Below, in pieces: positions 8,015 through 63,205 of a DNA stretch of 64,000 nt (position 1 is the stretch's first letter; each line of letters starts with the position of its first letter). The stretch is taken from the IMG/VR virus record IMGVR_UViG_3300047576_000028, positions 33,002-97,001 of that record. One strand, given 5' to 3'. Below the pieces are notes generated by a model, which did not search any database, was not told the DNA's origin, and saw only the letters and a program-made list of their open reading frames with translations. The position numbers were made by a program, and so were the translations under genes. Source of the stretch: a virus (lineage: Duplodnaviria > Caudoviricetes).

Positions 8015-8092
8015 TAAGTTTTCTCCGAGAAGCCCCTGATATTTTGCATGTGGAATCTAAAAGCCCCTGGCTTTAGCCGTGGAGTTGCTTAC
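8015..8092 (+). mobile_element. Family-A IS200/IS605 miniature element (78 bp, internally deleted)
   Basis: Preceded by TCAC; left end aagttttctccgagaagcccctga fused to right end ...aaagcccctggctttagccgtggagttgcTTAC, matching the end of the tnpB at 48.4-49.6 kb. Confidence 0.85.
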
Positions 8093-8301
8093 TTGGTGGC
8101 AATCCTGAAGCCAGCATCGAGTATCAGGAACTCGCAGCCAGTGCGGGCCTTGGCTCCAGCCAAATAGGTCTCAATATCGGACAGTGATTCTTTGTCCAAT
8201 GGTTCCGCGCATTCGATGACGTACACGCCGCCGCGCTTCAACTGTATTGGCTGTTCTCCGGGAGGACCGCGGCGCAGCCAGTCCCACAGACGCTTGCGCA
8301 T
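8089..8301 (-). CDS. Hypothetical protein; stop codon supplied by the element right end
   Basis: 70-aa ORF within the operon; TAA is the complement of the TTA in TTAC. Confidence 0.55.
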   Translation of the reverse strand: MRKRLWDWLRRGPPGEQPIQLKRGGVYVIECAEPLDKESLSDIETYLAGAKARTGCEFLILDAGFRIATK

Positions 8302-8663
8302 TAGGTAGCACCGCCGATAGCGAGACAGGTCAGCCGCGTTATCACATTCACCTCGTGTTCGTTCTCAACAGATTGGACTATCCACTGTCCACTAGGAGTT
8401 TGTAGTCTGCAACCTCCGATGAAGACTGGGTTATACCACATTGTACACTCCATAATCGAAATGGATATGTCTTGCCCTGCTTTCACCAGATCCGTGCCGT
8501 GCATGTATTCCACTTGCGCCATTACCATGGTCGGATTGTCACCAGGTCCCCAAGTGACAACGCCTCCAGATATCGGGTCAGTCCCCGGAATCGCCACTAG
8601 AAGCGTGACAGGAGTGCGAAATTTTCCAGGATTACAAACAGGCCAACTAGTCTTGCGCGGCAT
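8301..8663 (-). CDS. Head-tail adaptor (head closure) protein
   Basis: NPGKFRTPVTL N-terminus of the gp16-like G.LR..ITI type; size and position. Confidence 0.7.
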   Translation of the reverse strand: MPRKTSWPVCNPGKFRTPVTLLVAIPGTDPISGGVVTWGPGDNPTMVMAQVEYMHGTDLVKAGQDISISIMECTMWYNPVFIGGCRLQTPSGQWIVQSVENEHEVNVITRLTCLAIGGAT

Positions 8664-8666
8664 CGG

Positions 8667-9689
8667 CTATATCCACAGGCGATTGCTGCCGAACAAGGCT
8701 GCGACGGCAAATGGCGGCTCTGCCACGAACCTGATGGCGTCATACGGCACCCTGTCCGTGAACCATTGATTGACAAGCAGAGTCATGCCTTGCGCGATAC
8801 TGGTCTTCACTACCGGGGCAGACGCTGTGGTCAGTGCCGTGACATTGAAGGTAGCGCCAGCGCCATATCCGCCAGTCGTGATGTAGGGCGTGCTTATCGA
8901 ATTGACGGCGTACAGCGAACCTGGATCGTATATGCTCCACGTCAATGGGTTACCGACGCTATCCACCGTGAGAAGCTGCAATGTACCACCATATCCTCCA
9001 CCATTAGTCACGCCGTTATCATTGGCATCATACACGCGCTCTGCCGGTGACAGAAATAATAGGTCTCCAACTTGATAACCTCCGGCTCCAGGAGATACCA
9101 ACGTAACTGCCGAGATCCCAGTCTGGACATACCACCAAGGGATGAAACCGCTCAGGAATCCTACATGAATGGCGGATGAGGGCCAGAGGTTAGTCACGGG
9201 CCATCCAGTACTCGGCGGTGAAGGATAGATAATGCCCGGCTCCTTCCACGAGTCCACGATGTAGTCTGGCACTCCACCAGCCGCCACAGAGGCGGGCGTG
9301 CCTTGCACCAGATTGTGCAATACACCGCAAGAATCGTAGTAGTAGGCGTACTGCACAGATACTAGCGGGGCCGGTAGTTGTATGGCGTTGAGGTTGGCCG
9401 GGATATTATTCAGTAGGCGGTAAGCATCGGAGGGCCAGGACCCAAAGTAGGGATTGGCGATTGAGCAAGGGTCGAACATCGGTATACCGGGCCACTGGTC
9501 AATCGCAAGATCCCACTGTTTCAGCGTCATCTGACGCCCATTCCAGATTTCCGCCATCATGCGCGCCGCTACAATCAGACCGCCAATGTATTGATCCTGA
9601 TCCGTTAGCGTCGTGTAGCGTAACTGTGCTTTCGCCTGCGACACTTGAACCGCTTCAACACCTGAATCGGAGATGAGTTTAAGATTCAT
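8667..9689 (-). CDS. Head-tail connector (gp6-like) with a Gly-rich inserted domain
   Basis: N-terminal EAVQVSQAKAQLRY..DQYIGGLIVAAR and C-terminal IAQGMTLLVNQWFTDR motifs; 340 aa, much longer than typical. Confidence 0.7.
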   Translation of the reverse strand: MNLKLISDSGVEAVQVSQAKAQLRYTTLTDQDQYIGGLIVAARMMAEIWNGRQMTLKQWDLAIDQWPGIPMFDPCSIANPYFGSWPSDAYRLLNNIPANLNAIQLPAPLVSVQYAYYYDSCGVLHNLVQGTPASVAAGGVPDYIVDSWKEPGIIYPSPPSTGWPVTNLWPSSAIHVGFLSGFIPWWYVQTGISAVTLVSPGAGGYQVGDLLFLSPAERVYDANDNGVTNGGGYGGTLQLLTVDSVGNPLTWSIYDPGSLYAVNSISTPYITTGGYGAGATFNVTALTTASAPVVKTSIAQGMTLLVNQWFTDRVPYDAIRFVAEPPFAVAALFGSNRLWI

Positions 9690-9697
9690 CCATCAGC

Positions 9698-9997
9698 CTA
9701 CGGTCGCTTATCAGGCGGATACTTCGCGACTCTTTGAGTGACCACGGGCCTCTCGCTCGATGGAATGGAGACCTCGGCTAGAGGTTGAATAGCCTTTTCT
9801 TCAATCGGCGTCGTTGGAGGTGGCGCAATTACCACGGCGACCCCAGCCATCACCAATTGGGCGGCGCGGGCCGCTGGAAATCCAGCCTTCTCGCCTGCAT
9901 TATAAATATCACAGTGACGGAGAAATTCCACCGTTACCACCGGTGAGCCAACTGCCTTCTTGCCTGGCCACGCGAAGGCCATATCTTCACCTGTCAT
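9698..9997 (-). CDS. Small capsid-associated protein
   Basis: VEFLRH..YNAGEKAGFP..RAAQLV..GVA, a domain common after capsid genes. Confidence 0.5.
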   Translation of the reverse strand: MTGEDMAFAWPGKKAVGSPVVTVEFLRHCDIYNAGEKAGFPAARAAQLVMAGVAVVIAPPPTTPIEEKAIQPLAEVSIPSSERPVVTQRVAKYPPDKRP

Positions 9998-11508
9998 GCC
10001 GCCTCCTTGATGTCGTCAATTATCTTGGCCCAAATAGTCGTTCCCGGAATCACGACAACTCCTTCTAACTCTTCCTGGACTGCCTGGGCTACGCCGGGAA
10101 ACTGAATGTCATGCCCGCATATTAAAAACTTCGCCTTGTGTTTCCACGCGCGTATATCCGTAAGCACCTCTGGATAAGTATGGCCCCCGTCGATAAACAC
10201 CATGTCTACATCGGGAACGTCCTGCTCGGGTAGTCCGCTGGCCGCCTCGATACTTGACTTCTTCACGATATGAAGGTTTTCGAAGGAACCTACATTATTG
10301 AGAAACTGCCCAAAGACATCCCCAGTGACCGCCTCCTTGTGCGATGTATTTCGTTCGTCTTCGGACCCCAGCCAATGATCCACGGCGTAGACCGGCCCAT
10401 CGCAATTAGAGAGAAGAGCGAATGTCGAGCGCCCCTTCCAGCATCCGATCTCCGCTATGGAATGAACCTGTCGCGCGGCTCCGGCCAGAAAGTCAAGTTC
10501 CGGCTTCGACATCCACCCCTCAATCTGGGCGGCATCCGTGATGTAACCGTTCTGCTTGGCTACCAGGGGAGCGTCGTCAGCGCCCGTGCCGTACATCAGG
10601 TTGTTGGTCCCATAGACCCACGGACAAATTTGCAAGTCGGTGCAAGGCGTCACAGGCGTAGGAATTATCGCCTCTGGTTTCTCAGCCACTAAAATGGTCT
10701 TTACATCGCCGTAATAGCGGTACTGTCCGTGATGAGCTAACTTAATCTGCGGGTCTATCCAGACCTTCCCCCCGATGCGCTGCCATAGCCTGGAGAATCC
10801 CCAATCCTCCGACAGGTAATTGCGCTCCGTAGAGCGGGCGCACAGGATCTTGAGAGCCGCTTCCATGTTGGTAAATACGGACGAAGACCACAAGGGAACC
10901 CGGCCAACCCTATCATCTTCGCCATCGATGAAGCAGTCGAACAGCAGATATTCGAATGGCGCTTCGTTCTCAGGTCGCGAACTGCGCAATTTGCAGCGGC
11001 GCTCTGGATAAGCCAGCATCATCTTGACGATGGCGGATCTTCGGACCATCAGGAATCCGGTAGGGGCGTCCTGGACCTCCAGGTAACCGGTAGCCGGATG
11101 CTGGTTTACGTGCTTGTCGGACCCTGGCGGGAAATTGACATTGAACTCGATTGGGAGCCCCTTCTTGGGGTAGATGCCGCCAGCCACCTCGATATCCTCG
11201 TGCTGAGTGGCGGCCAAGAGCCGCAAGGCGCTTTCAGATTCAAACTCGATATCCCCGTCAATGAAGAATAGGTGCGTGTAGGGGCCTGCCATGAAGCTGG
11301 CTACCATGGCATTGCGGGCGCGGGTGATTAGGCTATCGCCGGGGACAAAAGCGGGGGTATGTTTGATGCCACCGAGCGCCAGCACGTTGGATAAACGTAA
11401 CAGCGAGTGGTTATAGGCCGTGTGGGTTTGCCCGCCATAGGCCGGGGTGGCAATGAATAGGTTTGTTGCTGGATCGATTGTCATGATGGTAAAGCAAGCG
11501 GAAGTCAA
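9994..11508 (-). CDS. Glycosyltransferase-like domain fused to a class I SAM methyltransferase (Methyltransf_24-like)
   Basis: IATPAYGG, SLITRARN, FFIDGDI and YLSEDWGF motifs, then EIGCWKGRST, VFIDGGHTY and ICGHD. Confidence 0.8.
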   Translation of the reverse strand: MTSACFTIMTIDPATNLFIATPAYGGQTHTAYNHSLLRLSNVLALGGIKHTPAFVPGDSLITRARNAMVASFMAGPYTHLFFIDGDIEFESESALRLLAATQHEDIEVAGGIYPKKGLPIEFNVNFPPGSDKHVNQHPATGYLEVQDAPTGFLMVRRSAIVKMMLAYPERRCKLRSSRPENEAPFEYLLFDCFIDGEDDRVGRVPLWSSSVFTNMEAALKILCARSTERNYLSEDWGFSRLWQRIGGKVWIDPQIKLAHHGQYRYYGDVKTILVAEKPEAIIPTPVTPCTDLQICPWVYGTNNLMYGTGADDAPLVAKQNGYITDAAQIEGWMSKPELDFLAGAARQVHSIAEIGCWKGRSTFALLSNCDGPVYAVDHWLGSEDERNTSHKEAVTGDVFGQFLNNVGSFENLHIVKKSSIEAASGLPEQDVPDVDMVFIDGGHTYPEVLTDIRAWKHKAKFLICGHDIQFPGVAQAVQEELEGVVVIPGTTIWAKIIDDIKEAA

Positions 11509-13669: not shown

Positions 13670-13712
13670 ATCAGTTCGCGAGAGAAACCGCTGGCTTTAG
13701 CCATGCGGAGGG
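13670..13712 (+). mobile_element. Family-B IS605 left-end remnant
   Basis: gaaaccgctggctttagccatgcggaggg is identical to the left end at about 37422-37450; TCAT at 13666-13669. Confidence 0.7.
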
Positions 13713-17503: not shown

Positions 17504-18199
17504 CTAGAGCGGTACCGACATCAGTCCCCATTTTGGCGTGGGGATAGAAGCCTGAAGCCGGCGCAGCGCGATGATAGTCGCGACCACACCATCGATCCGT
17601 TTGCTGCTTTTCTGGCGGTTAGGTTTTACCGGCTTGATATTCGCCGCCGATTCGTCTTGGGCTATTGCTGTACAGTCCACATTCCACCGCAGGACTTGAT
17701 GCCCACTGTGAACCAACTTGCCGGACAGCACCAAAGACTCAAAATACTTGCTTGGGGCGCTCAGTGAAATGTAGCCCTGGCCCACGTCAACTACTTCGAT
17801 ATCAACGTTAGCCAAATCCGATACGGTGTCGCGCGCGCCGTGGCGATCAAAACCGATTTGCTTGATGTCGAATATCTTATCCAGTTCCTTGATGCGCTCA
17901 CGGCAGTATCCCCAATCGGTAACCGGCCCAGGGGTCAGTTCTACAAGTCCTTGCTTGGCCCATAGGTCATACCGTACATTGTCTTTCTTGGACCGTTCCA
18001 GCAAGCCGTCTTCCGGTATCCAAAACCATACATGCACGTAGACCGATTGTTTGATGAGCCAGACTAACGAGAACGCAGTGAGATCGGAGACGGCGGCTAA
18101 ATCGAGGCCCCCGTAACATGGATATTTAACCAGTTGCTCGCAGAACTTCTGCCCGTCCGGATCTCTAGTGATTAGCGGAGTTGCTGCTGGTGCGGCCAT
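17504..18199 (-). CDS. terL: Terminase large subunit, C-terminal nuclease half
   Basis: CYGGLDLA, IGFDR, VGQG and KRIDGVVA motifs. Confidence 0.85.
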   Translation of the reverse strand: MAAPAATPLITRDPDGQKFCEQLVKYPCYGGLDLAAVSDLTAFSLVWLIKQSVYVHVWFWIPEDGLLERSKKDNVRYDLWAKQGLVELTPGPVTDWGYCRERIKELDKIFDIKQIGFDRHGARDTVSDLANVDIEVVDVGQGYISLSAPSKYFESLVLSGKLVHSGHQVLRWNVDCTAIAQDESAANIKPVKPNRQKSSKRIDGVVATIIALRRLQASIPTPKWGLMSVPL

Positions 18200-18255
18200 T
18201 AACTTGTTGTTTGCGCAGAGCCTTCACTTTGGCCTTCCTGCGCTTTGTGCGTCCC

Positions 18256-19236
18256 TTACCCATTTGACGCCGCGATGGGTTGCCCGTCCCACTTACAGGC
18301 ATCCCAGTCTATCATGGGTATCCAACAGGAAGCACTGTTAACCCACTGCGACAAATGTAGTTGTTGAAAGTCGCGTTGCAGGCGCGGGGTCCTAACCGCC
18401 CGTTCAAACTCTTCCTCCAGGATCTCCATATTGACAGTAATCCCAAGGGCCGGATTCGCCAACGGCCACAGGGACTTGTCTGTCCAGTCTGCTTCCCTGG
18501 GGACCTCGTAGATCATCGGAAGGTAAGTGGGGTCTTCAAACACTGCAGGCACGAACTTCCCATCTTTATCCCTTGTCGGCGTGATGTTCTTAGCGTAAAG
18601 ATATTCCTGCCCGCACATCGTCTCTTCGTCCACACCAGCCGTGGTTATGTATACCTCAAGCGGTTGCCTACGTGCGCCGCGTCCGGTAGTTAGTGCCTTG
18701 CGAAGGTCTTCTTCCCGAGCACCCCACACATGGAATTCGTCGTAGAGGATAGTGCTTGGATTCGAGCCGTGCTTGGCCTTTCCCTCAGACGACAAAGCCT
18801 TAAACATACCCTTGTTCTTGCGATGTCGAATCTCCTTCCGATATGGGATCACTTGTAGTAGATCCGGCAATTCCTCGTGCGCCATCACCATCTCGGAAGC
18901 CGCTTCATACAGCTTGCTACTTTGCTCTGAGGTTTTGGCGGCTGCGTATATCTCCTGATAAGGTTCCGGGTCCATGACTAGTAGGTCTAAGCCAAGTGCT
19001 GCGCATGACTGCGTTTTGGAATTTTTCCTGCCCACAGATAAGAAAGCCGTTCTGTATAGTCGCGTGCCATCCGCGCGCTTCCACCCTAACAGGTTTCCGA
19101 TCAACTTCTTTTGAAATGGCATCAGCCGAAACGGCTCCGGCTTGCCGCTCTGCGTGGACTTAGTAAGGGTTAGCGACTCGATAAAGGCGAAGTCCAGCAG
19201 CACGCTGGTGTCGAAGTATATGCCGTCGATGTCCAT
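18256..19236 (-). CDS. terL: Terminase large subunit, N-terminal ATPase half
   Basis: LMPFQK, Walker A VGRKNSKT, Walker B LYDEFH, YITTAG and W..ANPALG motifs. Confidence 0.9.
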   Translation of the reverse strand: MDIDGIYFDTSVLLDFAFIESLTLTKSTQSGKPEPFRLMPFQKKLIGNLLGWKRADGTRLYRTAFLSVGRKNSKTQSCAALGLDLLVMDPEPYQEIYAAAKTSEQSSKLYEAASEMVMAHEELPDLLQVIPYRKEIRHRKNKGMFKALSSEGKAKHGSNPSTILYDEFHVWGAREEDLRKALTTGRGARRQPLEVYITTAGVDEETMCGQEYLYAKNITPTRDKDGKFVPAVFEDPTYLPMIYEVPREADWTDKSLWPLANPALGITVNMEILEEEFERAVRTPRLQRDFQQLHLSQWVNSASCWIPMIDWDACKWDGQPIAASNG

Positions 19237-21607: not shown

Positions 21608-21620
21608 GGATTCAACCTTT

Positions 21621-28023: not shown

Positions 28024-28054
28024 GATTCGGGTAGTTTACGTATGTAATCCCCCA

Positions 28055-35469: not shown

Positions 35470-35539
35470 GTAAGCAACTCCACGGCTAAAGCCGGGGGCT
35501 TTTAGATTCCACATGCAAAATATCAAAACATTTCGCTGC
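35470..35539 (-). mobile_element. Family-A right-end fragment (70 bp)
   Basis: Matches the last 70 bp of the element. Confidence 0.8.
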
Positions 35540-41924: not shown

Positions 41925-42089
41925 CAAGTTTTCTCCGAGAAGCCCCTGACTCCAGTCATGGGGAGGACGGGAGAATCGGCGCGGTCGTCCGGCATGGCCG
42001 GAGTAAGCCGACTCGAACCGCAGCGAAATGTTTTGATATTTTGCATGTGGAATCTAAAAGCCCCCGGCTTTAGCCGTGGAGTTGCTTAC
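41925..42089 (+). mobile_element. Family-A miniature element (165 bp)
   Basis: TCAC at 41921-41924; same left-end/right-end junction as the 19493 and 63041 copies; ends TTAC. Confidence 0.9.
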
Positions 42090-48346: not shown

Positions 48347-49582
48347 CTGACTCCAGTCATGGGGAGGACGGGAGAATCGGCGCGGAGCACCGACTGCATT
48401 TCTCCCGTTATCGTGATATAATTGTCACTATGAGCAAGCGGGCAATTCGGTGTAAGCTGTCGCCTACTCCCACGATGACCGCTTCTCTTTCCGAAACGTG
48501 CGCCGCCTTCGCCGACGCCTGCAATGCAATTCTGGCCGTTGCTGTTAAAACTGGGGTTTCTAACAACGTTGCACTCCAACGGCTGACATATCGCAACGCC
48601 AGGAACGACTTCAAATTGTCCGCCAACCTTGCGGTTCGCGCGGTTCGTCGTGTCTCGCAGTCCATGACTGCCTGGAAGGTCCGTGGTGGTAAACCGAAAG
48701 AGTTCCGTCCGACCAGCATCGACTATGACGCCCGCATCTTCGATTACCGGGCCAAGGATGAAACTGTTTCGCTGACTGTTATAGGCGGACGCATTCATGT
48801 CCCGCTGATCTTGGGTGATTATCAGAGAGATGCATTGACGGGGAAGAAGCCTACTGCTGCCGTTGTGGTCCGGGCCGGAAGCGCTTGGCAGATCAACATC
48901 GTTGTCGAAGACAAAGACCCCCCGCCTGCCGATGGACCGCCCATGGGCGTTGACCTCGGCATCCGAAATACTGCCGCGACCTCTCACGGCACGCTGTATA
49001 GCGGGTCCAGCAGGCAGAAGTTCAAGAACGGGCGCAACAAAGTTCGCGCATCCCTCCAGTCCAGAAACAACCGCTGTGCCCGCAAGGTACTGCGCAGACT
49101 CTCTGGGCGGGAGCGCCGCCATATTACGTGGTCGAACCACAATCTCAGCAAGGCCATCGTTGCCGAAGCCAAAGACACGCAATCCGGGATTATTCGGATG
49201 GAACGGCTCAAAGATATTCGGCAGCGGTGCAAGATCCGCAACAGGCACACCAACCGGATGATGTCCGGCTGGTCGTTTGGGCAACTGCAAGCCTTCGTTG
49301 CCTATAAAGCTGCGCGTTGCGGAATCAAGATCGAGTACGTTGACCCTGCATATACTAGTCAGACGTGCGCCCAATGCGGCGCGCTCGGCAAGCGCAGGGG
49401 CGACGTGTTCTCGTGTACAACCTGTGGCACTGCTCATGCGGATATTCAAGCCGCCATGAACATTGCAGCAGGCGGAGTCGTCCGGCATGGCCGGAGTAAG
49501 CCGACTCGAACCGCAGCGAAATGTTTTGATATTTCGCATGTGGAATCTAAAAGCCCCCGGCTTTAGCCGTGGAGTTGCTTAC
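48347..49582 (+). mobile_element. IS200/IS605-family tnpB-only element, family A (outer left end missing)
   Basis: Partial left end ctgactccagtcatggggaggacgggagaatcggcgcgg, right-end hairpin and TTAC. Confidence 0.85.
48430..49566 (+). CDS. tnpB: RNA-guided endonuclease TnpB (catalytic motifs intact)
   Basis: Start MSKRAIRCKL 7 nt after TATAAT; MGVDLG, RMERL and HADIQAA motifs; CAQC..CTTC. Confidence 0.95.
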   Translation: MSKRAIRCKLSPTPTMTASLSETCAAFADACNAILAVAVKTGVSNNVALQRLTYRNARNDFKLSANLAVRAVRRVSQSMTAWKVRGGKPKEFRPTSIDYDARIFDYRAKDETVSLTVIGGRIHVPLILGDYQRDALTGKKPTAAVVVRAGSAWQINIVVEDKDPPPADGPPMGVDLGIRNTAATSHGTLYSGSSRQKFKNGRNKVRASLQSRNNRCARKVLRRLSGRERRHITWSNHNLSKAIVAEAKDTQSGIIRMERLKDIRQRCKIRNRHTNRMMSGWSFGQLQAFVAYKAARCGIKIEYVDPAYTSQTCAQCGALGKRRGDVFSCTTCGTAHADIQAAMNIAAGGVVRHGRSKPTRTAAKCFDISHVESKSPRL

Positions 49583-50876: not shown

Positions 50877-51892
50877 ATCTGTATCAATTACAGAAGCGCC
50901 GGAATCCAGCATGAAGCGGTCCTGTCCGTAGCGTTCGATTAAGGCGCGTCTCACTTCAGCGTTGCTCTCGGCGAGAATAGCGGATGACGTTACTTCCTGG
51001 CAGTAATACTTCCAAGACATCCGAATGCCATGCCATGCATAAACTCCCCAACCATCGCCATAGGAAATGGCCGCTTCCGTAGCATGATGCAACCGCCCGC
51101 GCTCATCAAGATGCAAGGCTGCCGGTTTCTCGGTAGCTAGCACCATATGCTTAAATGGCCACCACCATCCACAGTGACGGGCCTGCTCAAACAGCCCGTC
51201 TAGTTTCTCGCACGCTTTAAGGCCACAGACGTCGAGGAAATAGGAATAGAATGATAGCACTCCTGCATCGTGAGATCCATACACGCTGGCCCCCACGCTG
51301 GCCACGCTGGCCCCCACGCTGGCCCACGCTGGCCCCCACGCTGGCCCGCACGCTGGCCCACACGCTGGCCCACACGCTGTCCCACCCTGGCCCACACGCT
51401 GTCCCGCACGCCCACCACGCTGTCCCCCACGCTGGCCCCCACGCTGTCCGCTGGCCCACACGCTGTCCCTCACGCTGTCCCCCACGCTGTCCCTCACGCT
51501 GGCCCCCACGTTGGCCCCCACGCTGTCCCACACGCTGTCCCACAGGCTGGCCACCACGCTGGCCACCACGCTGGCCCGCACGCTGTCCCGCACGCTGTCC
51601 CGCACGCCCCCACGCTGGCCCACACGCTGGCCCACACGCTGGCCCACACGATCTTGCGGTTGTCACGCAAATTCGTAACAACCGTGTAGGCTAGAGCGCC
51701 AGCTAATGGCGACTTGAACCACACGATTCGCTTAGGCGCGGCCATGCCAGCCTTCTCATAACACAGATGGATAGCTGCCTCTGCCTTTGCGTGGTCCGTA
51801 GGCTCAACGGAAAGCCCGATAGCCTTCCACCGGGCTACGACTTCTGGGAAACGTGCTATCTGTTCAGGCGTTAGGGACTCAATTCGTGCCAT
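50877..51892 (-). pseudogene. Second DUF6745-like allele, frameshifted within the 12-bp repeats
   Basis: Flanking domains are near-identical to 40216-41357; partial repeat units break the frame. Confidence 0.75.
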
Positions 51893-53631: not shown

Positions 53632-54603
53632 CTAGTTCCAAGCTATCTGCTTAATGTCCATGTCTTCCAATGGTTCAATCCCGCGCGGCTCACGCCACGG
53701 TTTATCGCCGTAACGCTTGACGCAAGCGCAATACAGGTCCAGTAAGTCGCATACCTGTTTCCGCGCCATAATCCAATAGAGCGTCGCCTGCCCCCCGACC
53801 TTCGGCCCGAGCAATCGCAACCGTACTTCGTGGGGTTCTTCCGACTCCACGAAGCAAAGAACCGGCAAGGCCCCAACTTCACCGGCTAACTCACGGATCA
53901 TTGTGTATAGGTACATTTTACCCAGATAATTTTCGTACCAAATGGCATCGTTTACGGTCTTGTCGATTGACTTATTGCTTCGCTTGACCGAGAACGTCTT
54001 TAGATCCGGCGTGTAATGCGCCGTAACCGCGTCCATCCGGGCCTTCAGTACTATACCGCGCTCTTTGTCTTTGACCTCGTAGAACTCTTCTACACGCGCG
54101 CCCTTCAGGAGTTCTTGCATCTTCGGCTCCGCATTCAAAGCCTCCGCGCAAGCGATGATGCGAAGCCAATCGTCCTTGGCGAATTGAACTTTTCCGGTAT
54201 TCTCCTGACGGTGCGCCTCGCACATCAAATCCCAGATTAGCGGCGGATCTTCCCCGGCATGTTTTTGTTCAAATGTCGCTCGCACTTGAGATACAAGATC
54301 TGCCTTAAGTGTTCCTTTTGGGTTTTTACCCCTATCGCGTAGCCACTGCCGAAGGTTATCATTGGTGACCAGTAACCCATCGAAATCGGATTGAGATAAG
54401 GAACAAGCGTACCTGTCGTTGAATTGCTCTGGCTCTAGCACTGCGCAGTGTAATGCCGAGCCGAAAGTCATCTCCGGAGATGTCCTGGATGGAGGTCTGT
54501 CGGGGTCTACATTCCTAGCCCAGAATCTAAAGGGAGACACCGCTAGGTCTTTCAGCGAAGACCAAGACACTCCTGGCATCTCGGCATATTGCTCATGAGT
54601 CAT
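53632..54603 (-). CDS. PD-(D/E)XK exonuclease (RecE / exonuclease VIII, DUF3799-like)
   Basis: VSWSSLK, FGSALHCAVLEP, LKARMD and DLKT motifs. Confidence 0.85.
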   Translation of the reverse strand: MTHEQYAEMPGVSWSSLKDLAVSPFRFWARNVDPDRPPSRTSPEMTFGSALHCAVLEPEQFNDRYACSLSQSDFDGLLVTNDNLRQWLRDRGKNPKGTLKADLVSQVRATFEQKHAGEDPPLIWDLMCEAHRQENTGKVQFAKDDWLRIIACAEALNAEPKMQELLKGARVEEFYEVKDKERGIVLKARMDAVTAHYTPDLKTFSVKRSNKSIDKTVNDAIWYENYLGKMYLYTMIRELAGEVGALPVLCFVESEEPHEVRLRLLGPKVGGQATLYWIMARKQVCDLLDLYCACVKRYGDKPWREPRGIEPLEDMDIKQIAWN

Positions 54604-54945
54604 GGAGCATCCTATTCGGCCTTAACTAAAAACGGAGTCAATAAAGCCCGTTCCGTAGTCCATCCAAGCATAGATCCGCACTTACAATGCAGCATTTGAG
54701 GTTCACTAGGCGGAGTCTTACGTAGAACTTTCATGACTGTATCCCCCACACTGCTTCAATGGCTTGCGCTGCTTGCGTAAGCGTAGCGAACACTCCTAGA
54801 AAGCCGGTGCCGAACTCTGTTCGCGGAAAGCGGCCATCGTATGCGCGGTACTGATGTGGATCTTGACGTGGCTCGGGCTTCACGAATCCCCAGTGCCCTT
54901 TGTAATAAGCTTCGTATTCGCCTTCGTTAAGAAACCAGTGCAGTG

Positions 54946-55092
54946 TCATGTGATTAGCCTATTATAGGTGAGACGCTTACCTACGCACCCGGCAACGAAG
55001 CTATTGAGCCGCGCCGTGGTGTGGTTGCGGACGTTACCCTCGTTCAGTCGGAAGGTGAACTCATCGACGTAGCGATGCAGGTGCTTTTTGCT
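54946..55092 (-). pseudogene. IS1595-family transposase C-terminal fragment (second copy at 58074-58220)
   Basis: SKKHLHRYVDEFTFRLN...GKRLTY motif. Confidence 0.75.
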
Positions 55093-55251
55093 ACCGCTCT
55101 CGGGTACTTCGCATACAACTTCATCAAGATTCATTCGACTCTCCGCACGACTCCTGCGATGGCCGCTGGAGTGACTGATCGCCTCTGGGAGGTATCGGAT
55201 TTAGTTGCCGCGTGGGAAGCGGACGAACGGCGCGAAGAGATAGCCGCATAA
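55088..55251 (+). pseudogene. IS1-like DDE transposase C-terminal fragment (second copy at about 58216-58379)
   Basis: YNFIKIHSTLRTTPAMAAGVTDRLW motif. Confidence 0.7.
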
Positions 55252-55281
55252 AGCGCCGAACCTAGACTAATCAGACGAACG

Positions 55282-55860
55282 ATGACAATCGATCCCAGCG
55301 CCAGAAATAAGAAGCAAGATCGTTTCCATCGGCTCTTCGGTTGGGATTCACCTAAGGCCGTCGCAATCGTCCACCTTGTTTTTGAGTGGCTAGAAACAGT
55401 ATCGCTGGCGTTGGCTATTGGTCTGGTTACCCAGCAGACATTCGCGGGTAGGGACTGGTACTCAATGCCGGATTTGCAAAACGTGGTTGCAGGCTGCGCT
55501 CTGGCAGATTGGCTCAACGCTAACAGCATCGCCACGGCCATTAGCGCAATACACAACCGGCCAGCAGATAGCGTAGTGGTGGTTAATGTAGGCCCAAAAC
55601 CAACAACGCTAGGAATGTTGAATGAGTTGAGATCACAGGGAAACTGGAACTTCTGGCGTAGCCAAGAGCGCGCTCCGTTATATAGACCGATAGCGGCAGA
55701 AGATGTTAAATCACTCCGTCTCTTGCTGGAAAAGATCGGTGGAGGAGACACAGCCTTCTTGCAATTTATGGGCGTGGCGCGTGTCGAGGATATCCTGCAA
55801 TACGATTTCCCAAAAGCCGTGAATGCCCTGAGGGGTAAACTGCGCGGGATGGGGCAATAA
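55282..55860 (+). CDS. Hypothetical protein (second copy 58410..58988)
   Basis: 192-aa ORF after the transposase fragment; possibly chimeric. Confidence 0.45.
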   Translation: MTIDPSARNKKQDRFHRLFGWDSPKAVAIVHLVFEWLETVSLALAIGLVTQQTFAGRDWYSMPDLQNVVAGCALADWLNANSIATAISAIHNRPADSVVVVNVGPKPTTLGMLNELRSQGNWNFWRSQERAPLYRPIAAEDVKSLRLLLEKIGGGDTAFLQFMGVARVEDILQYDFPKAVNALRGKLRGMGQ

Positions 55861-57437
55861 CGCCAAAGTAGCCCACTACCGGAGTTTTCATCGCACCACA
55901 TGGCCGCTATGCGAATGGCTTCCTCTCGCCGTATTTTGGCATGTTCAAATACGCCGTGCCTGCGTAGTGTTTCTACCTCGTCTGGTTCGATGCTAGACGG
56001 AAGCAGGGAACCGTCTTTCGAGATATAGAGCACGCTGTCGTAACTCTCATCTTTGATAGCGCCGCGCATCTCCACGATGTCATCCGATGCGCCAAAGATA
56101 ACCAGAAGACCGTTAGTCTTAGCGGCTAGTTCCTCGGTAGCTAGAAGTTCCTCGCCGTATTCACGTCCGTTCAGAGTAGAAGCTAAAGATTCTTTCGTCA
56201 TTGATTCGCGACCTGTCGCGGCACCGAATTTATGATCCATTCCGACTTCTCGGTAATGGTCTTCCATGGCGCTGTGTTCTCGCTGCGCATCTTCCCATTC
56301 GACCTCCACCCCTTTGCCCGCTGGTCCGCTTCATTCACGGGATTGTCCGCGTGCCAACCTCTGCCTCTAAGTTGCGCTCTACCTTTATGTCGTCCATAAA
56401 GATATGTTCGCTTGGCTTCGGAGTTTGTGAGCCTTCGCCAATACCTGAGAAAATACCATATGGGCTGCACATTAGCGCTGCCGAAGCCTCCGTTTGGAAT
56501 CGGATAGCTTTATGAGGATCGTCCGTCCAAATCGGATTATCGTAATCAAACCCCGCAAGCCAGCGCGGAAACTGATGACGTTCTGCAAACCAGCAAATTG
56601 CGTCCGGCGTGAAACTGACAATGGTTGTGTCGCTGGAAGCGACCGCGATGGTTTGGCCGGCGGCCAACTGCGCCCCCGCTTCCCCGCTCGCGTCCGTTCC
56701 AATGATGAAATACTTCTCGTTCTTCGTGTTCAACGGCAAACTCAACATACGTTTTTCTCCTGTTTTCTGAAATACAAACCTAAACGACGTTGCATGTTTC
56801 GGTTTTAGCGATACAAACCTTAACGACATTGCAGGTTTCGGTTTTAGCAATTCCCGCAATAACTCCTCAATCCGTTCGAGCGTTTCCAACATCTTGCTGG
56901 TCTGCCATCGCTCCATGGCATCTATAGGCATGGGTCTTCCACCTCCAAGTCAACCCCTTTCGCGGTGCTGTCGTAATCCGCCTCACGCGCAGCCTGTTTC
57001 AGCAGCGCGCGGGTTTCAACCAGCATGATGGGCACGTCATCGGGCATCTTCATCCTCTGTGGCGATGCTACTGCGCGTCCGCTGCCATGCAGCTTGCCGC
57101 CGGGGCCGTCATAGATTCCGCCGTCAATCATCTTTCCCTCCCTGCACCGACTCGCTCCAGGGCGCGCTTCAGTAGCTTTGACATGTACGCGCTGAACGAC
57201 ATTCCAATAGCTTCGGCGCGCGCGCGACCTGCCGCCAGAAGAGTCTTGGGAATACTGACCGTTATCGGCATCGGTGGATCTACACTTCCTGGTCTGCCCA
57301 TGTGATTTATTTAATCATAAAACTACCGAAAGTGTCAAGCGTTAGTGGGCTTGTCAAAGGCCACAATGACGGCCCCTTAGAAACAACCTCATCCTCTTGG
57401 CACTGCAATGCCTGCATCTTTTCTCGCGCCGCATAGA

Positions 57438-57731
57438 CTACTGAATCGCGCCAAGTTGCAGTACCCTTCGGTTCGCGCGGAACGTGAACAGGTTCGTCAC
57501 TACCATTCGTTTAAATCCCCAGCGCTGCGCAAAACCCCTGCACTTACGAAATTGCTCTGGCTCTAGCACTGCGCAGTGTAATGCCGAGCCGAAAGTCATC
57601 TCCGGAGATGTCCTGGATGGAGGTCTGTTGGGGTCTACATTCCTAGCCCAGAATCTAAAGGGAGACACCGCTAGGTCTTTCAGCGAAGACCAAGACACTC
57701 CTGGCATCTCGGCATATTGCTCATGAGTCAT
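57438..57731 (-). pseudogene. Chimera of the exonuclease N-terminus and a DUF1643-like fragment
   Basis: First ~61 aa nearly identical to 53632..54603, then RKCRGFAQRWGFKRMVVTNLFTFRA. Confidence 0.6.
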
Positions 57732-60359
57732 GGAGCATCCTATTCGGCCTTAACTAAAAACGGAGTCAATAAAGCCCGTTCCGTAGTCCATCCAAGCATA
57801 GATCCGCACTTACAATGCAGCATTTGAGGTTCACTAGGCGGAGTCTTACGTAGAACTTTCATGACTGTATCCCCCACACTGCTTCAATGGCTTGCGCTGC
57901 TTGCGTAAGCGTAGCGAACACTCCTAGAAAGCCGGTGCCGAACTCTGTTCGCGGAAAGCGGCCATCGTATGCGCGGTACTGATGTGGATCTTGACGTGGC
58001 TCGGGCTTCACGAATCCCCAGTGCCCTTTGTAATAAGCTTCGTATTCGCCTTCGTTAAGAAACCAGTGCAGTGTCATGTGATTAGCCTATTATAGGTGAG
58101 ACGCTTACCTACGCACCCGGCAACGAAGCTATTGAGCCGCGCCGTGGTGTGGTTGCGGACGTTACCCTCGTTCAGTCGGAAGGTGAACTCATCGACGTAG
58201 CGATGCAGGTGCTTTTTGCTACCGCTCTCGGGTACTTCGCATACAACTTCATCAAGATTCATTCGACTCTCCGCACGACTCCTGCGATGGCCGCTGGAGT
58301 GACTGATCGCCTCTGGGAGGTATCGGATTTAGTTGCCGCGTGGGAAGCGGACGAACGGCGCGAAGAGATAGCCGCATAAAGCGCCGAACCTAGACTAATC
58401 AGACGAACGATGACAATCGATCCCAGCGCCAGAAATAAGAAGCAAGATCGTTTCCATCGGCTCTTCGGTTGGGATTCACCTAAGGCCGTCGCAATCGTCC
58501 ACCTTGTTTTTGAGTGGCTAGAAACAGTATCGCTGGCGTTGGCTATTGGTCTGGTTACCCAGCAGACATTCGCGGGTAGGGACTGGTACTCAATGCCGGA
58601 TTTGCAAAACGTGGTTGCAGGCTGCGCTCTGGCAGATTGGCTCAACGCTAACAGCATCGCCACGGCCATTAGCGCAATACACAACCGGCCAGCAGATAGC
58701 GTAGTGGTGGTTAATGTAGGCCCAAAACCAACAACGCTAGGAATGTTGAATGAGTTGAGATCACAGGGAAACTGGAACTTCTGGCGTAGCCAAGAGCGCG
58801 CTCCGTTATATAGACCGATAGCGGCAGAAGATGTTAAATCACTCCGTCTCTTGCTGGAAAAGATCGGTGGAGGAGACACAGCCTTCTTGCAATTTATGGG
58901 CGTGGCGCGTGTCGAGGATATCCTGCAATACGATTTCCCAAAAGCCGTGAATGCCCTGAGGGGTAAACTGCGCGGGATGGGGCAATAACGCCAAAGTAGC
59001 CCACTACCGGAGTTTTCATCGCACCACATGGCCGCTATGCGAATGGCTTCCTCTCGCCGTATTTTGGCATGTTCAAATACGCCGTGCCTGCGTAGTGTTT
59101 CTACCTCGTCTGGTTCGATGCTAGACGGAAGCAGGGAACCGTCTTTCGAGATATAGAGCACGCTGTCGTAACTCTCATCTTTGATAGCGCCGCGCATCTC
59201 CACGATGTCATCCGATGCGCCAAAGATAACCAGAAGACCGTTAGTCTTAGCGGCTAGTTCCTCGGTAGCTAGAAGTTCCTCGCCGTATTCACGTCCGTTC
59301 AGAGTAGAAGCTAAAGATTCTTTCGTCATTGATTCGCGACCTGTCGCGGCACCGAATTTATGATCCATTCCGACTTCTCGGTAATGGTCTTCCATGGCGC
59401 TGTGTTCTCGCTGCGCATCTTCCCATTCGACCTCCACCCCTTTGCCCGCTGGTCCGCTTCATTCACGGGATTGTCCGCGTGCCAACCTCTGCCTCTAAGT
59501 TGCGCTCTACCTTTATGTCGTCCATAAAGATATGTTCGCTTGGCTTCGGAGTTTGTGAGCCTTCGCCAATACCTGAGAAAATACCATATGGGCTGCACAT
59601 TAGCGCTGCCGAAGCCTCCGTTTGGAATCGGATAGCTTTATGAGGATCGTCCGTCCAAATCGGATTATCGTAATCAAACCCCGCAAGCCAGCGCGGAAAC
59701 TGATGACGTTCTGCAAACCAGCAAATTGCGTCGTTCATGGCTGCCTCTTTCTTGCCAATACTAAATCGTTTGGATCGCCGTCCAGAATGCCTATTATGTG
59801 GCTTATACTTCCGTCCCGCGCTCGGCACTCATCACCGCCATCAATCATATCAAGCAGTTCAGCCGTTGCCAGATAGACGCGCTCTTCGCAAGCCTTCTTA
59901 AGTTTGGCGCAGCTTTCAAATCTATCCCTTAAAACAGCAACGGCCATCGTGCTAGGGCATTCATTGCGTAGCTTCTGCCAGCCTTCTTCGCCCTCTGCAA
60001 TATGCTCGCATGCTTTGACACGGAGCATTTCAGCATCGCATTTTGTACAACTGATCGCCATATCCTCTCTCCCGCCACACTTGCCGCCTCTGCGACCATC
60101 CCGGCGTCATCGTTTCGGACAACGACTTGCCAGTCCGCAAGTCTTCGCGCTCTTGCGCCGCTATTACAAGCTCTTGCCAGCGGTAGAAATCACGTGCAGC
60201 CGCTTGCAGAAATCCGCGTGACATTGAACAGCAGCCATCGGTCATTCGATACGCGCCGCTATTGCCAGTAGTGTCAACTACTGGGATGGGTTCCGGGGAA
60301 TTCGAGTACTCCTGCCGCGTGGCCGCGCACTGATGGCAGCGGATGTCTGTTTCGTTCAT

Positions 60360-60391
60360 AAGGGCCTTTCGCGCGGCGTGCGGTAGTTTAC
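60360..60391 (+). mobile_element. Family-B miniature remnant (32 bp, left and right ends fused)
   Basis: TCAT, then aagggcctttcgcgcg, then gcgtgcggtagtTTAC. Confidence 0.7.
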
Positions 60392-60727
60392 TGACCGCTC
60401 CGATTAGTAAGTTCCCTTAGCCTTTGGATGCAGCACGTTGTCGCCTCCGCTTCTCGGCCGTTTGGCCGCTTTTTCCTTCTTCGATGAATCGCTCCGGATT
60501 CCTCGCCCGGTAAAGACGTGCGCGATGGTTGAGTTTGTCTACCATCGCCTGATTGCACTTGACGATCACGGCTTCCGCATCGCGTAGCAGCTTGCGCGAC
60601 ACGCGGTACTCCGTCCATTTGCGTGCCATGGCGGGCGTTTGAAAGCAGAATATGTACCCTAATATTATCCCGCCGACGAATCCAAGCGCTACGCCGACCA
60701 GGACCAGTGCGGCAGCGGACGCGCCGG

Positions 60728-60971: not shown

Positions 60972-61000
60972 AAAAAAGCCCCGGCGTTTCTGCCGGGGCC
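60972..61000 (-). terminator. Rho-independent terminator
   Basis: gccccggc-gtttct-gccggggc stem with an A6 run on the left side (U-tail on the minus strand). Confidence 0.7.
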
Positions 61001-61121
61001 GTCGCTTGCACTTCAGCGGGCTGCCGTAAAACGCAGAAAAGGCCCCGCTACCGTCCCAAGCTTGTCAAGGGCAAAGACGGCGGCGGGGCCTTATCTCAGA
61101 GATTCAAAGGGATTCGGCTAA

Positions 61122-61919
61122 GTAAGCAACTCCACGGCTAAAGCCGGGGGCTTTTAGATTCCACATGCGAAATATCAAAACATTTCGCTGCGGTTCGAGT
61201 CGGCTTACTCCGGCCATGCCGGACGACTCCGCCTGCTGCAATGTTCATGGCGGCTTGAATATCCGCATGAGCAGTGCCACAGGTTGTACACGAGAACACG
61301 TCGCCCCTGCGCTTGCCGAGCGCGCCGCATTGGGCGCACGTCTGACTAGTATATGCAGGGTCTACGTACTCGATCTTGATTCCGCAACGCGCAGCTTTAT
61401 AGGCAACGAAGGCTTGCAGTTGCCCAAACGACCAGCCGGACATCATCCGGTTGGTGTGCCTGTTGCGGATCTTGCACCGCTGCCGAATATCTTTGAGCCG
61501 TTCCATCCGAATAATCCCGGATTGCGTGTCTTTGGCTTCGGCAACGATGGCCTTGCTGAGATTGTGGTTCGACCACGTAATATGGCGGCGCTCCCGCCCA
61601 GAGAGTCTGCGCAGTACCTTGCGGGCACAGCGGTTGTTTCTGGACTGGAGGGATGCGCGAACTTTGTTGCGCCCGTTCTTAAACTTCTGCCTGCTGGACC
61701 CGCTATACAGCGTGCCGTGAGAGGTCGCGGCAGTATTTCGGATGCCGAGGTCAACGCCCATGGGCGGTCCATCGGCAGGCGGGGGGTCTTTGTCTTCGAC
61801 AACGATGTTGATCTGCCAAGCGCTTCCGGCCCGGACCACAACGGCAGCAGTAGGCTTCTTCCCCGTCAATGCATCTCTCTGATAATCACCCAAGATCAGC
61901 GGGACATGAATGCGTCCGC
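61122..61919 (-). pseudogene. tnpB: 5'-truncated inverted copy of family-A tnpB with its right end
   Basis: Reverse complement of 48785-49582 (798 bp, a few SNPs); N-terminal ~118 codons missing. Confidence 0.9.
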
Positions 61920-62302
61920 AACCCGGAAGGCGCGCGCTGATGCGCGCTGAGAAGTACAGCAGCGCGCGCCGTGGTGGACCACATTTGACGCTGGGAGTAG
62001 GCGTCTAGGCACAATTCCATTGTGCCACGGTTTTCCCGCCTTGTCTACCCAAAACATATTACCACTAAACAACTGAAACGATGTACCTTGGTCAAGAGGC
62101 ACAGAAACCGGATTGGCTACTCAAAGATCTGCAAGAGAATAGCGCACACTTTCAAGTAACGCCCGCACACGTCACACCCGCACCACCAGCCAGTAGTCGC
62201 GGCGTGATCCATTAGAAATTGGAATTGCTCCCATAGCACGTCCGCCTGTTGCGCCTTTTCTGGGATTCGCGGTAGCTCTATCGGCGCTGGTGCCATCGAC
62301 CG

Positions 62303-62713
62303 TTACCCCAACGTAGATCCAATTCTCACCGACAGTTCGGACGTAGGTCGCGCGAACTTCTCGAAGATTCGATTCCAGCGCTCGTTTTGTTCGGCGGCTC
62401 TTTGTCCCGGCAGTTTGGGTATTATCCCCGGCTTTGCTTTCGGCGCTGCCAGAGTAGGAGGTGGCGGCTTTGAGACATGCTTCCGCACTTCCCGAATCTC
62501 AATTTCGCCGCGTTCGAACAAAACGGCCAAACGCACCGCCATATTGCCGCTCTGCGTCATGCGTGAGTAGACCTGGTTCGACAACGTAACCCTAACTGAC
62601 CCTTCGGCAATTCCAAGAATAGCCCCCACCTCGCGAGAGGTTTTCCCTTGAGCGGTCAGGCGTATAATGGCGTATTGACGCGGCGTAACTGACAGCATTC
62701 GAGCGCCGGTCAA
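62303..62713 (-). CDS. LuxR-type HTH protein
   Basis: VTPRQYAIIRLTAQGKTSREVGAILGIAEGSVRVTL. Confidence 0.75.
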   Translation of the reverse strand: MTGARMLSVTPRQYAIIRLTAQGKTSREVGAILGIAEGSVRVTLSNQVYSRMTQSGNMAVRLAVLFERGEIEIREVRKHVSKPPPPTLAAPKAKPGIIPKLPGQRAAEQNERWNRIFEKFARPTSELSVRIGSTLG

Positions 62714-63040
62714 TCGGTCGGCTTATCCAAATTGCGGATCTCTTCCGCTATCGTGCTGCCGAGCGAGATCCAATGATTGTCCGCAATGGCGGCGCACTCT
62801 ACGCGCGCCTTCACGATTGCCTCTCTAACCAATTGCCGCGCCGCAAGCCGGTGCTCGGGATCGGTAAAGGCCATGTGTTGATGGACAGCTTCCTCCATCA
62901 ACTCCTCAACCTTTCGGCGCGTTCGCGGATCGTCGCCTTTTCGGAACGGCCATGATGTAGCGTTTGGTGTGGGCATATGTGTAATTCTCCTGTGATTCCA
63001 AAGTCATTTCTTCTTGGTTACCCGTAGATCCAATTCTCAC

Positions 63041-63205
63041 CAAGTTTTCTCCGAGAAGCCCCTGACTCCAGTCATGGGGAGGACGGGGGAATCGGCGCGG
63101 TCGTCCGGCATGGCCGGAGTAAGCCGACTCGAACCGCAGCGAAATGTTTTGATCTTTCGCATGTGGAATCTAAAAGCCCCCGGCTTTAGCCGTGGAGTTG
63201 CTTAC
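63041..63205 (+). mobile_element. Family-A miniature element (165 bp)
   Basis: TCAC at 63037-63040; ends TTAC at 63202-63205. Confidence 0.9.

What the first reader, a model, noticed from the sequence alone, without database searches (positions are those of the whole stretch)
8015..63205. One TnpB, eight right ends: a dispersed multi-guide omega-RNA network on a phage genome
Seen: an intact TnpB (48430-49566) plus seven more copies of its right end. These are three 165-bp mini-elements with an identical internal deletion junction (19493, 41925, 63041), a 78-bp mini (8015), right-end-only fragments (22305, 35470) and a 5'-truncated copy (61122). All four copies that keep the outer left end follow TCAC, and all eight end in TTAC. 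Each has a different 3' flank: ttggtggcaatcctga, ccatgaaaaacacccg, aagtccctttaccttc, tctggtcaaacatttt, tcgcggttcccgcgct, cgacatactgtgccgc, ttagccgaatcccttt, ttcttcttgcgctcca. No tnpA is in the window. Known: the TnpB omega-RNA is the element's 3' end plus about 16 nt of flank used as guide, and it cuts target motif + guide sites (the empty allele). Inference: the minis keep the last ~115 nt of scaffold and were mobilised as a unit in trans. They could load one TnpB with several guides against element-free alleles in related co-infecting phages (multiplexed homing or phage-phage exclusion).
Basis: partly seen in the sequence, partly recalled or inferred. Interest (0 to 1): 0.82.

Follow-up and report, generated by a model that had tools for sequence, protein, structure and literature searches.

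The report
Gene-less TnpB guide-RNA mini-transposons in phage
A soil phage genome is littered with stripped-down copies of a small jumping element, six or seven of which still carry the full guide-RNA scaffold of one RNA-guided nuclease (TnpB) encoded in the same phage. This arrangement is already known from bacteria and is seen here at unusually high density, and its proposed use against rival phages is untested.

Summary
All eight right ends, their TTAC termini, the TCAC left junctions and the eight distinct flanks are as described. The title is wrong on one point. A second intact TnpB of another family lies at 37522-38655, 35% identical, with its own tiny derivatives.

The 97-kb phage record holds further family-A copies: three outside the window and one cut by the contig end at 63975.

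The 165-nt minis are 60 nt of left end plus 105 nt of right end. They keep the whole omega-RNA core, meaning the enclosing stem, the pseudoknot GUAAGC/GCUUAC and the terminal hairpin. Covariation in eight other phage tnpB loci supports this core. A model built from those relatives scores six copies as full scaffolds and the rest as fragments.

The minis lack the tnpB promoter, and three of the six are antisense to phage transcription. No empty site was found in about 17 near-identical contigs or in two exact-pattern scans of IMG/VR. No guide has a second target.

Published work already describes gene-less, trans-acting omega RNAs and PATEs. It also names homing into co-infecting phages as a concept. 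This scan noted look-alikes in at least 32 other genomes.

Verdict: a new member of a known kind. The multi-guide weapon reading is possible but unshown.

The parts
48347..49582 (+). Family-A full element. It comprises a partial left end (48347-48429, outer 24 nt and TCAC missing), an extended -10 box TGATATAAT (48414-48422), a leaderless ATG at 48430, tnpB-1 (48430-49566, 378 aa), an omega-RNA core (about 49475-49582) and the guide CGACATACTGTGCCGC (49583-49598).
   Evidence: 60.7 bits; dN/dS 0.11
41925..42089 (+). 165-nt mini (60 nt left end plus 105 nt right end) after TCAC (41921-41924). Full scaffold. Guide TCGCGGTTCCCGCGCT. Antisense to the phage genes.
   Evidence: 47.3 bits
63041..63205 (+). 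165-nt mini after TCAC. Full scaffold. Guide TTCTTCTTGCGCTCCA. Its terminal TTAC supplies the TAA stop of the 102-aa gene 63202-63510 (-).
   Evidence: 49.9 bits
19493..19657 (-). 165-nt mini, co-directional with the phage genes. Full scaffold. Guide CCATGAAAAACACCCG. It lies just upstream of the terminase region.
   Evidence: 47.3 bits
61122..61919 (-). 5'-truncated family-A copy of 798 nt with 2 differences from the full copy. It carries the C-terminal 251 codons of tnpB plus a full scaffold. Guide TTAGCCGAATCCCTTT. It forms a 798-bp inverted repeat with 48785-49582.
   Evidence: 60.7 bits
63975..63978 (+). First 4 nt (CAAG) of another 165-nt-type mini after TCAC (63971-63974). The record breaks off here into adapter sequence. 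The mini is complete in the sister contigs L015 and L017, with guide CTTGCGGAACGCCGCT.
   Evidence: (L015 2836-2953, 49.9 bits)
8015..8092 (+). 78-nt remnant (24 nt left end plus 54 nt right end) after TCAC. It has no left-end hairpin and no pseudoknot strand. Its TTAC gives the TAA stop of the gene 8089-8301 (-).
   Evidence: 33.8 bits, partial
35470..35539 (-). Right-end fragment of 70 nt with an incomplete scaffold.
   Evidence: 34.8 bits
22305..22326 (+). Right-end fragment of 22 nt. It is conserved at the same place in the sister contig L023.
37410..38671 (+). Family-B element after TCAT. It has a left-end hairpin, tnpB-2 (37522-38655, 377 aa, intact D-E-D motif) and a right end finishing in GGTAGTTTAC. 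Its omega-RNA core has the same architecture, with pseudoknot GUAAAC/GUUUAC.
   Evidence: 44.5 bits
33555..33600 (+). Tiny family-B-like mini of about 46 nt after TTCAT, ending in GGTTGCTTAC. It is a hairpin only and has no scaffold. Similar relics lie at 13675-13712, 50844-50876 and about 60370-60401.

Best explanation
This is a colony of IS200/IS605-type single-strand transposons and their decay products in the genome of a tailed soil phage.

Family A consists of:
- one tnpB-only element whose nuclease gene and omega RNA are intact but whose outer left end is lost;
- one 5'-truncated copy;
- at least five PATE-like minis, each a left-end TnpA module fused to the omega-RNA core;
- several short right-end relics.

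A second family (B) has its own TnpB and still smaller relics.

Proposed history and mechanism:
1. (Inferred) The minis arose from one internal deletion.
2. (Inferred) A Y1 TnpA that the phage does not encode, most likely the host's, then inserted them 3' of TCAC sites.
3. (Inferred) Only insertions at gene boundaries survived. Because TCAC and TTAC read GTGA and GTAA on the coding strand, several of them sit on a stop codon and replace it (the stop-codon positions themselves are shown).
4. (Shown by comparative analysis) TnpB-1 with its own omega RNA is under selection.
5. (Inferred from ISDra2, GstTnpB and published stand-alone omega RNAs) Full-scaffold minis that get transcribed can borrow TnpB-1 in trans. 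Each would direct cleavage of TCAC plus its own flank, which is its own empty site. This favours retention or re-copying of that mini, and as a by-product would act on a co-infecting relative that lacks it.
6. (My judgement) The arrangement is selfish-element maintenance, not a phage-evolved weapon.
For: - Copies, junctions, and TCAC and TTAC ends.
- The record is a phage. It has an HK97-type capsid, a portal and a prohead protease, and nearly all genes lie on one strand.
- No Y1 TnpA, serine recombinase or integrase is present.
- TnpB-1 is intact and constrained. The catalytic D-E-D residues and three of the four zinc-finger cysteines are invariant in 27 homologues, and the fourth cysteine (C329) is at least 90% conserved. 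dN/dS against the 86%-identical homologue in L028 is 0.11. Synonymous divergence falls from 0.85 to 0.20 where the gene overlaps the RNA core.
- Omega-RNA core: 94% of cells pair, against 31-45% in the slid controls. Ten pairs show compensatory changes. The pseudoknot pairs in 100% of cells, with types AU 5, GC 2 and GU 2 at one position.
- The core's size and layout match the 116-nt ISDra2 scaffold with its pseudoknot (PMC10097598).
- A covariance model built without any sequence of this phage scores six copies at 47-61 bits and the fragments at 35 bits or less.
- Stand-alone omega RNAs are reported to work in trans (PMC10691335), and PATEs with omega RNAs are described (PMC10055086).
- Stops are supplied by the element end at 8089, at 63202 and at record position 10808.
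Against: - No RNA data exist, so neither transcription nor TnpB binding of any mini is shown.
- The minis lack the conserved tnpB promoter, and the consensus scan found no promoter beside the two + strand full-scaffold minis scanned (41925 and 63041).
- Of the full-scaffold copies other than the full element, three are sense and three antisense to the phage genes.
- No TnpA source was identified. The right-end sequence is absent from 185,579 species genomes.
- No empty site was seen, so recent mobility within the phage is inferred only from the shared junction and the different flanks.
- The record is a metagenomic assembly with internal exact duplications and adapter ends. An independent 51-kb contig from another sample supports the order from 63975 down to about 16191.
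Confidence: 0.72

Rival explanations
1. The minis are purely passive relics. They are MITE-like debris that is never loaded into TnpB. The complete scaffold in the 165-nt mini reflects a single chance deletion that later spread by TnpA.
For: - All 165-nt minis descend from one deletion event, so n = 1 for 'scaffold kept'.
- Retained right-end lengths run from 22 to 120 nt with no preference. At least six family-A copies and all family-B derivatives lack a usable scaffold.
- The tnpB promoter is deleted.
- Substitutions among copies include stem-breaking ones.
- No orientation bias toward phage transcription is seen.
Against: - The deletion end lies within about 3 nt of the 5' edge of the conserved core.
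- An independent variant at record 22389-22508 also keeps the whole core.
- Co-directional copies (19493, 61122, record 22389) must be transcribed within phage operons.
- TnpB is reported to load stand-alone omega RNAs in other systems (PMC10691335).
Confidence: 0.2
2. The phage has domesticated an immobilised TnpB plus dispersed guide cassettes as a multiplexed weapon or gene drive. It cuts the mini-free alleles of co-infecting relatives, giving RNA-guided marker exclusion.
For: - The only intact tnpB-1 copy has lost its outer left end, so it is probably fixed in place.
- There are seven full scaffolds with seven different guides.
- None of the roughly 35 other TnpB-bearing viral loci that match the scaffold model has a second scaffold within 10 kb, and the repeat search on 38 such loci found none, so this density is unusual.
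- The closest TnpB relatives (86% and 64% identical) also sit in phage contigs, one of them from an unrelated P22-like phage.
- The minis are fixed in every contig of this phage population.
Against: - No element-free allele was found in about 17 related contigs from several samples, or in the two exact-pattern IMG/VR scans run (the full copy's and the 41925 mini's empty sites).
- The minis have no promoter of their own, and three of six are antisense.
- Most copies are dead fragments, which fits transposon decay better than a maintained arsenal.
- Each guide matches only its own flank.
Confidence: 0.08

Closest known systems
PATEs and stand-alone omega RNAs of IS200/IS605 (OMEGA) systems (Geobacillus stearothermophilus, PMC10055086; Altae-Tran 2021 as summarised in PMC10691335)
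   Same: These are gene-less derivatives that keep both transposon ends and the omega-RNA scaffold. They lie in the same genome as a compatible TnpB, need TnpA and TnpB in trans, and each has its own flank-derived guide.
   Different: - The host replicon is a phage of about 97 kb with no TnpA at all.
- The density is high, with at least 12 family-A copies plus about 7 family-B copies.
- The minis lack the element's promoter.
- The cognate full element has a truncated left end.
ISDra2 TnpB and its omega RNA (Deinococcus radiodurans; PMC10097598)
   Same: - The nuclease is about 380-400 aa with a RuvC D-E-D triad and a zinc finger.
[quoted passage not shown]
- The core is about 105-116 nt, and its last bases pair with an upstream strand to form a pseudoknot next to stem 1.
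- The guide is the 3' flank.
   Different: - The target motif is TCAC rather than TTGAT.
- Similarity to solved TnpB and Cas12f chains covers only the C-terminal RuvC and zinc-finger region (E 1e-18 to 1e-7).
- The mRNA is leaderless, starting from a -10 box 7 nt upstream of the ATG.
- No cognate TnpA is known.
Free-standing homing endonucleases of T-even phages (SegF, SegG; marker exclusion), and 'transposon non-restorative homing' as tabulated in PMC13565253
   Same: The proposed outcome is the same: cleavage of the element-free allele in a co-infecting relative and copying-in of the element with its flanking markers.
   Different: Recognition here would be RNA-guided and multi-site. Nothing of the kind has been shown for this phage, and no empty alleles were found.

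Membership tests
IS200/IS605 family, tnpB-only (IS1341-type) element | TnpB protein with a RuvC D-E-D triad and a C4 zinc finger (Pfam OrfB_IS605 plus the Cas12f1-like TNB domain) | tested here: met
   One search gives PF07282 at 73 bits and PF01385 at 32.5 bits, both over cut-off. One search shows D175, E258, D338, C313, C316 and C332 invariant, and C329 conserved in at least 90% of sequences.
IS200/IS605 family, tnpB-only (IS1341-type) element | Asymmetric ends with subterminal imperfect hairpins, insertion 3' of a 4-5-nt target without a target duplication, and a right end finishing in a related tetranucleotide | tested here: met
   The left-end hairpin is CCCCTGAC-TCCA-GTCATGGGG and the right-end hairpin is CCCCCGGC-TTTA-GCCGTGG. 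TCAC lies on the left of five copies and TTAC ends all copies. No direct repeats flank them.
IS200/IS605 family, tnpB-only (IS1341-type) element | Mobilisation by a Y1 HUH transposase (TnpA) | tested here: not met
   The 97-kb record has no PF01797 match, and neither do five related viral records. A trans-acting TnpA is assumed but was not found.
TnpB omega RNA | A structured RNA at the element's 3' end that overlaps the tnpB stop, with a conserved pseudoknot formed by the last bases before the guide | tested here: met
   One search shows covariation (94% paired, 10 compensatory pairs, pseudoknot 100% paired). One search shows that dS drops in the overlap. In one search the model finds exactly one match at the 3' end of tnpB in each of about 35 other viral loci.
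PATE / stand-alone omega RNA | No ORF, both transposon ends kept, complete scaffold kept, and several copies at different sites | tested here: met
   Searches cover the three 165-nt minis. One more is in L015 and L017. A variant lies at record 22389-22508.
PATE / stand-alone omega RNA | Expressed, and loaded by a TnpB in trans | not testable with these tools
   No RNA or binding data exist. The promoter scans were empty, and the tnpB promoter is absent from the minis.
IS607 family | A serine recombinase TnpA next to tnpB | tested here: not met
   The record has no PF00239 match.

The most novel reading that the evidence does not exclude
A lytic soil phage keeps one immobilised but active TnpB and at least six dispersed promoter-less omega-RNA cassettes. 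Read-through phage transcripts load the single nuclease with about seven guides. Each guide cuts the cassette-free allele of a co-infecting relative. The result would be an RNA-guided, multi-locus version of T-even marker exclusion that drags flanking phage modules through the population.
Probability: 0.1. Interest if true: 0.75.

Novelty: new member of a known kind. Interest (0 to 1): 0.38.

Why it matters
If the minis are loaded, this phage would be a compact natural case of one TnpB served by about seven dispersed guides. That would make a good test bed for whether OMEGA elements drive super-Mendelian inheritance between co-infecting phages, an idea so far only proposed. Even as selfish debris it shows two things. 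IS200/IS605 elements can colonise a phage that has no transposase of its own. And only gene-boundary (stop-codon) insertions persist. The covarying, roughly 80-105-nt core defined here also gives a usable omega-RNA model for this TnpB clade.

Tried and rejected
- Rfam: no family matches anywhere in the window.
- The exact 24-nt right-end pattern had no match in GTDB species genomes or IMG/VR. The only hits were two soil metagenome contigs, where 34-40 nt of the same right end border an IscB gene.
- A TnpB-1 protein scan of species genomes gave only a 26%-identical hit, so no host was identified.
- Exact look-ups of TnpB-1 and of three flanking ORFs failed, probably because the start codons were called differently. 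Later look-ups with other starts worked.
- The 51-kb sister record could not be searched whole because it is not held.
- Empty-site patterns for the full copy and the 41925 mini found nothing in IMG/VR.
- The search for secondary TCAC-plus-guide targets in the record and in related loci found none.
- The sigma-70 consensus scans were empty, even at the evident tnpB -10 box, so they say little.
- I considered whether the full copy's upstream TTCTTCC could stand in for the lost outer left-end stem. I rejected it as unproven.
- I considered assembly chimerism as the source of the copy number. I rejected it for the region 16191-63975, which an independent contig supports.
Full report
**What the window is.** The window is bases 33002-97001 of a 97,001-bp IMG/VR virus record. 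The record encodes an HK97-type capsid protein, a portal and a prohead protease. Almost all of its ORFs lie on the minus strand, and G+C is 56%. Both ends of the record carry a SMART-type adapter, so true sequence stops at window 63978. Independent contigs from several other samples are 99-100% identical over long stretches. A 51-kb contig is collinear with the window from 63975 down to about 16191. The layout is therefore not a one-off assembly artefact.

**The observation.** The 17-nt terminus GCCGTGGAGTTGCTTAC occurs exactly eight times, where 0.1 is expected by chance.
- Three copies of 165 nt (19493-19657 minus, 41925-42089, 63041-63205) share the junction ...atcggcgcgg|tcgtccgg... and follow TCAC.
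- The other copies are also as described: 8015-8092 (78 nt), 22305-22326 (22 nt), 35470-35539 (70 nt) and the 798-nt truncated copy 61122-61919.

**Four corrections.**
1. A second intact TnpB lies at 37522-38655. It is 377 aa, 35% identical to the first, and has both Pfam domains. It has its own ends, a TCAT target and very small derivatives of 32-79 nt.
2. Family A has more copies. They lie at record positions 22389-22508, 7492-7528 and 10765-10811. A further mini begins at window 63975 and is cut by the contig end; it is whole in L015 and L017.
3. The mini is 60 nt of left end plus 105 nt of right end (49478-49582). The seven bases before that only resemble the full copy.
4. The full copy matches the mini's left end only from 48347. 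Its outer 24 nt, half of the left-end hairpin and the TCAC junction are missing.

**The nuclease.** TnpB-1 has the catalytic D175, E258 and D338 and three of the four zinc-finger cysteines invariant among 27 homologues of 51-86% identity; the fourth cysteine, C329, is conserved in at least 90%. Against its closest homologue (86% identical, locus L028) dN/dS is 0.11. Synonymous divergence drops from 0.85 to 0.20 in the last 38 codons, which overlap the RNA. Both the protein and the overlapping RNA have therefore been under selection. Upstream of the ATG lies TGATATAAT followed by 7 nt. Relatives have a -10-like box at the same distance, and one has a full TTGACA-N17-TACACT. This suggests a leaderless mRNA driven from inside the left end. 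That segment is deleted in the minis.

**The RNA.** The 3' ends of tnpB genes from eight other phage contigs align with this one.
- They share a stem enclosing the motif GUAA(G/A)C, a variable stem-loop, a run of A, a terminal hairpin with a UUUAG loop, and the last six bases G(C/U)UUAC.
- A structure with the stem, the hairpin and a pseudoknot between GUAAGC and the terminal GCUUAC pairs in 94% of cells. Slid controls pair in 31-45%.
- Ten pairs show compensatory changes. The pseudoknot pairs in all cells, with AU, GC and GU types at one position.
- This matches the published ISDra2 scaffold: a 116-nt core, 5' region dispensable, with bases -5 to -3 pairing far upstream next to stem 1 (PMC10097598).
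- The minis keep all of it except the outermost pair of the enclosing stem.
- A covariance model built only from the eight foreign sequences scores six copies of this record at 47-61 bits. These are the full copy, the truncated copy, record 22389, and the minis at 63041, 41925 and 19493. TnpB-2's own end scores 44.5 bits, and every fragment scores 35 bits or less.

**Context.**
- Insertions sit at gene boundaries. On the coding strand TCAC reads GTGA and TTAC reads GTAA. The element end provides the stop codon of the downstream gene at 8089, 63202 and record position 10808. Two other genes run 36 nt into the right end to a TAG. I read this as survival of harmless insertions in a tightly packed genome, not as targeting logic.
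- Of the full-scaffold copies other than the full element, three are co-directional with the phage genes and three are antisense.
- The record has no Y1 TnpA, no serine recombinase and no tyrosine integrase.
- Five related viral records that carry clade TnpBs also lack TnpA. Three of them are 99-100% complete.

**Tests of the proposed function.**
- About 17 near-identical contigs from several samples cover every family-A site. All of them contain the element.
- Exact empty-site patterns for two copies are absent from IMG/VR.
- Each guide matches only its own flank in the record and in the related loci. No other site combines TCAC with a guide-like 12-mer carrying two mismatches or fewer.
- So there is no evidence of element-free alleles and none of secondary targets.
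- On the other side, the multiplicity is unusual. In 38 other TnpB-bearing viral loci no second right end lies within 10 kb. The covariance model finds exactly one match per locus, at the tnpB 3' end, in about 35 of them. Contigs of this phage population have two or three.

**Literature.** Three papers bear on novelty.
- Stand-alone, mobilised omega RNAs without an effector are stated to function in trans and to 'provide for targeting additional sites' (PMC10691335, citing Altae-Tran 2021).
- PATE-like elements carrying omega RNAs that need TnpB in trans are discussed for Geobacillus (PMC10055086).
- A 2026 review tabulates 'transposon non-restorative homing' into co-infected phages as a type of homing (PMC13565253).

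This scan's own index also lists similar phage cases in at least 32 other genomes (unchecked notes).

**Verdict.** The thing is real and well defined. It is an IS200/IS605 tnpB-only element with PATE-type derivatives, here in a phage at high density, with a well-supported omega-RNA core kept in six or seven copies. Trans-loading is plausible by analogy. The phage-against-phage weapon reading has no support beyond plausibility and faces missing promoters, mixed orientation and many dead copies. I file it as a new member of a known kind, with moderate interest.

Noticed in passing
window 63979-64000, and record bases 1-26 (L004:1-26): Both ends of the virus record carry the SMART/template-switch primer sequence AAGCAGTGGTATCAACGCAGAGTAC, reverse-complemented at the right end. 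The last 22 bases of the window are adapter, not phage. The true sequence breaks off inside a mini.
   Followed up: partly
L011:134-210 and L012:1127-1196: Two soil metagenome contigs carry the terminal 34-40 nt of the family-A right end next to a 454-aa IscB-like gene (PLMP motif, HNH) in the opposite orientation. TnpB and IscB elements may therefore share one TnpA-recognised end.
   Followed up: partly
L028:7210-8361: The closest TnpB-1 homologue (86% identical) sits antisense in the structural module of an unrelated phage contig with a P22-type coat and portal. It has a different left-end hairpin but the same promoter and RNA core. A 64% homologue (P0013) also lies in a phage-like 185-kb contig.
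   Followed up: partly
window 33601-34257 versus L015: The sister contig L015 lacks a 653-bp block, including the 199-aa gene at 33601-34200. The block starts 4 nt after the right end of the tiny mini at 33555-33600. L015 and L025 also show other module rearrangements of this phage.
   Followed up: partly
window 54422-56604 and 57550-59732; 44744-45068 and 56600-56924; 45358-45758 and 56947-57347: An exact 2183-bp direct duplication and several 99-100% identical shorter repeats lie in the right arm. The first 5.3 kb of the 51-kb sister contig (L016) runs through the second copy (59732 down to 58730), and the locus L024 from the same contig covers the first copy, so the duplication appears to be present there too, though the stretch between the two loci (58730-56697) was not fetched.
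   Followed up: no
window 40491-41114 and 51281-51650: About 55 tandem 12-nt repeats lie inside a 388-aa ORF (40191-41357, -). A paralogous repeat gene lies at 50835-51647. Repeat number varies among the sister contigs.
   Followed up: no
window 17504-19236: The large terminase is called as two ORFs: an ATPase of 326 aa (18256-19236) and a nuclease of 231 aa (17504-18199). The same split appears in the sister contig L023. The 165-nt mini at 19493 lies just upstream.
   Followed up: no
window 21619-21729, 27885-28029, 31144-31291: An unrelated repeat family of 110-146 nt, 96-98% identical, has four copies. The fourth is at record 2249-2348. It is not an IS200/IS605 end.
   Followed up: no
window 36803-37201 (-): A 132-aa ORF whose N-terminus weakly matches the HTH_OrfB_IS605 domain (E 0.039, below cut-off). 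It may be the remnant of a third TnpB, and it lies next to the family-B left end.
   Followed up: partly
window 48785-49582 and 61122-61919: The full and the truncated tnpB-1 copies form a 798-bp inverted repeat, 99.7% identical, around an 11.5-kb segment. Recombination between them would invert that segment. The contigs examined show only the one orientation.
   Followed up: partly
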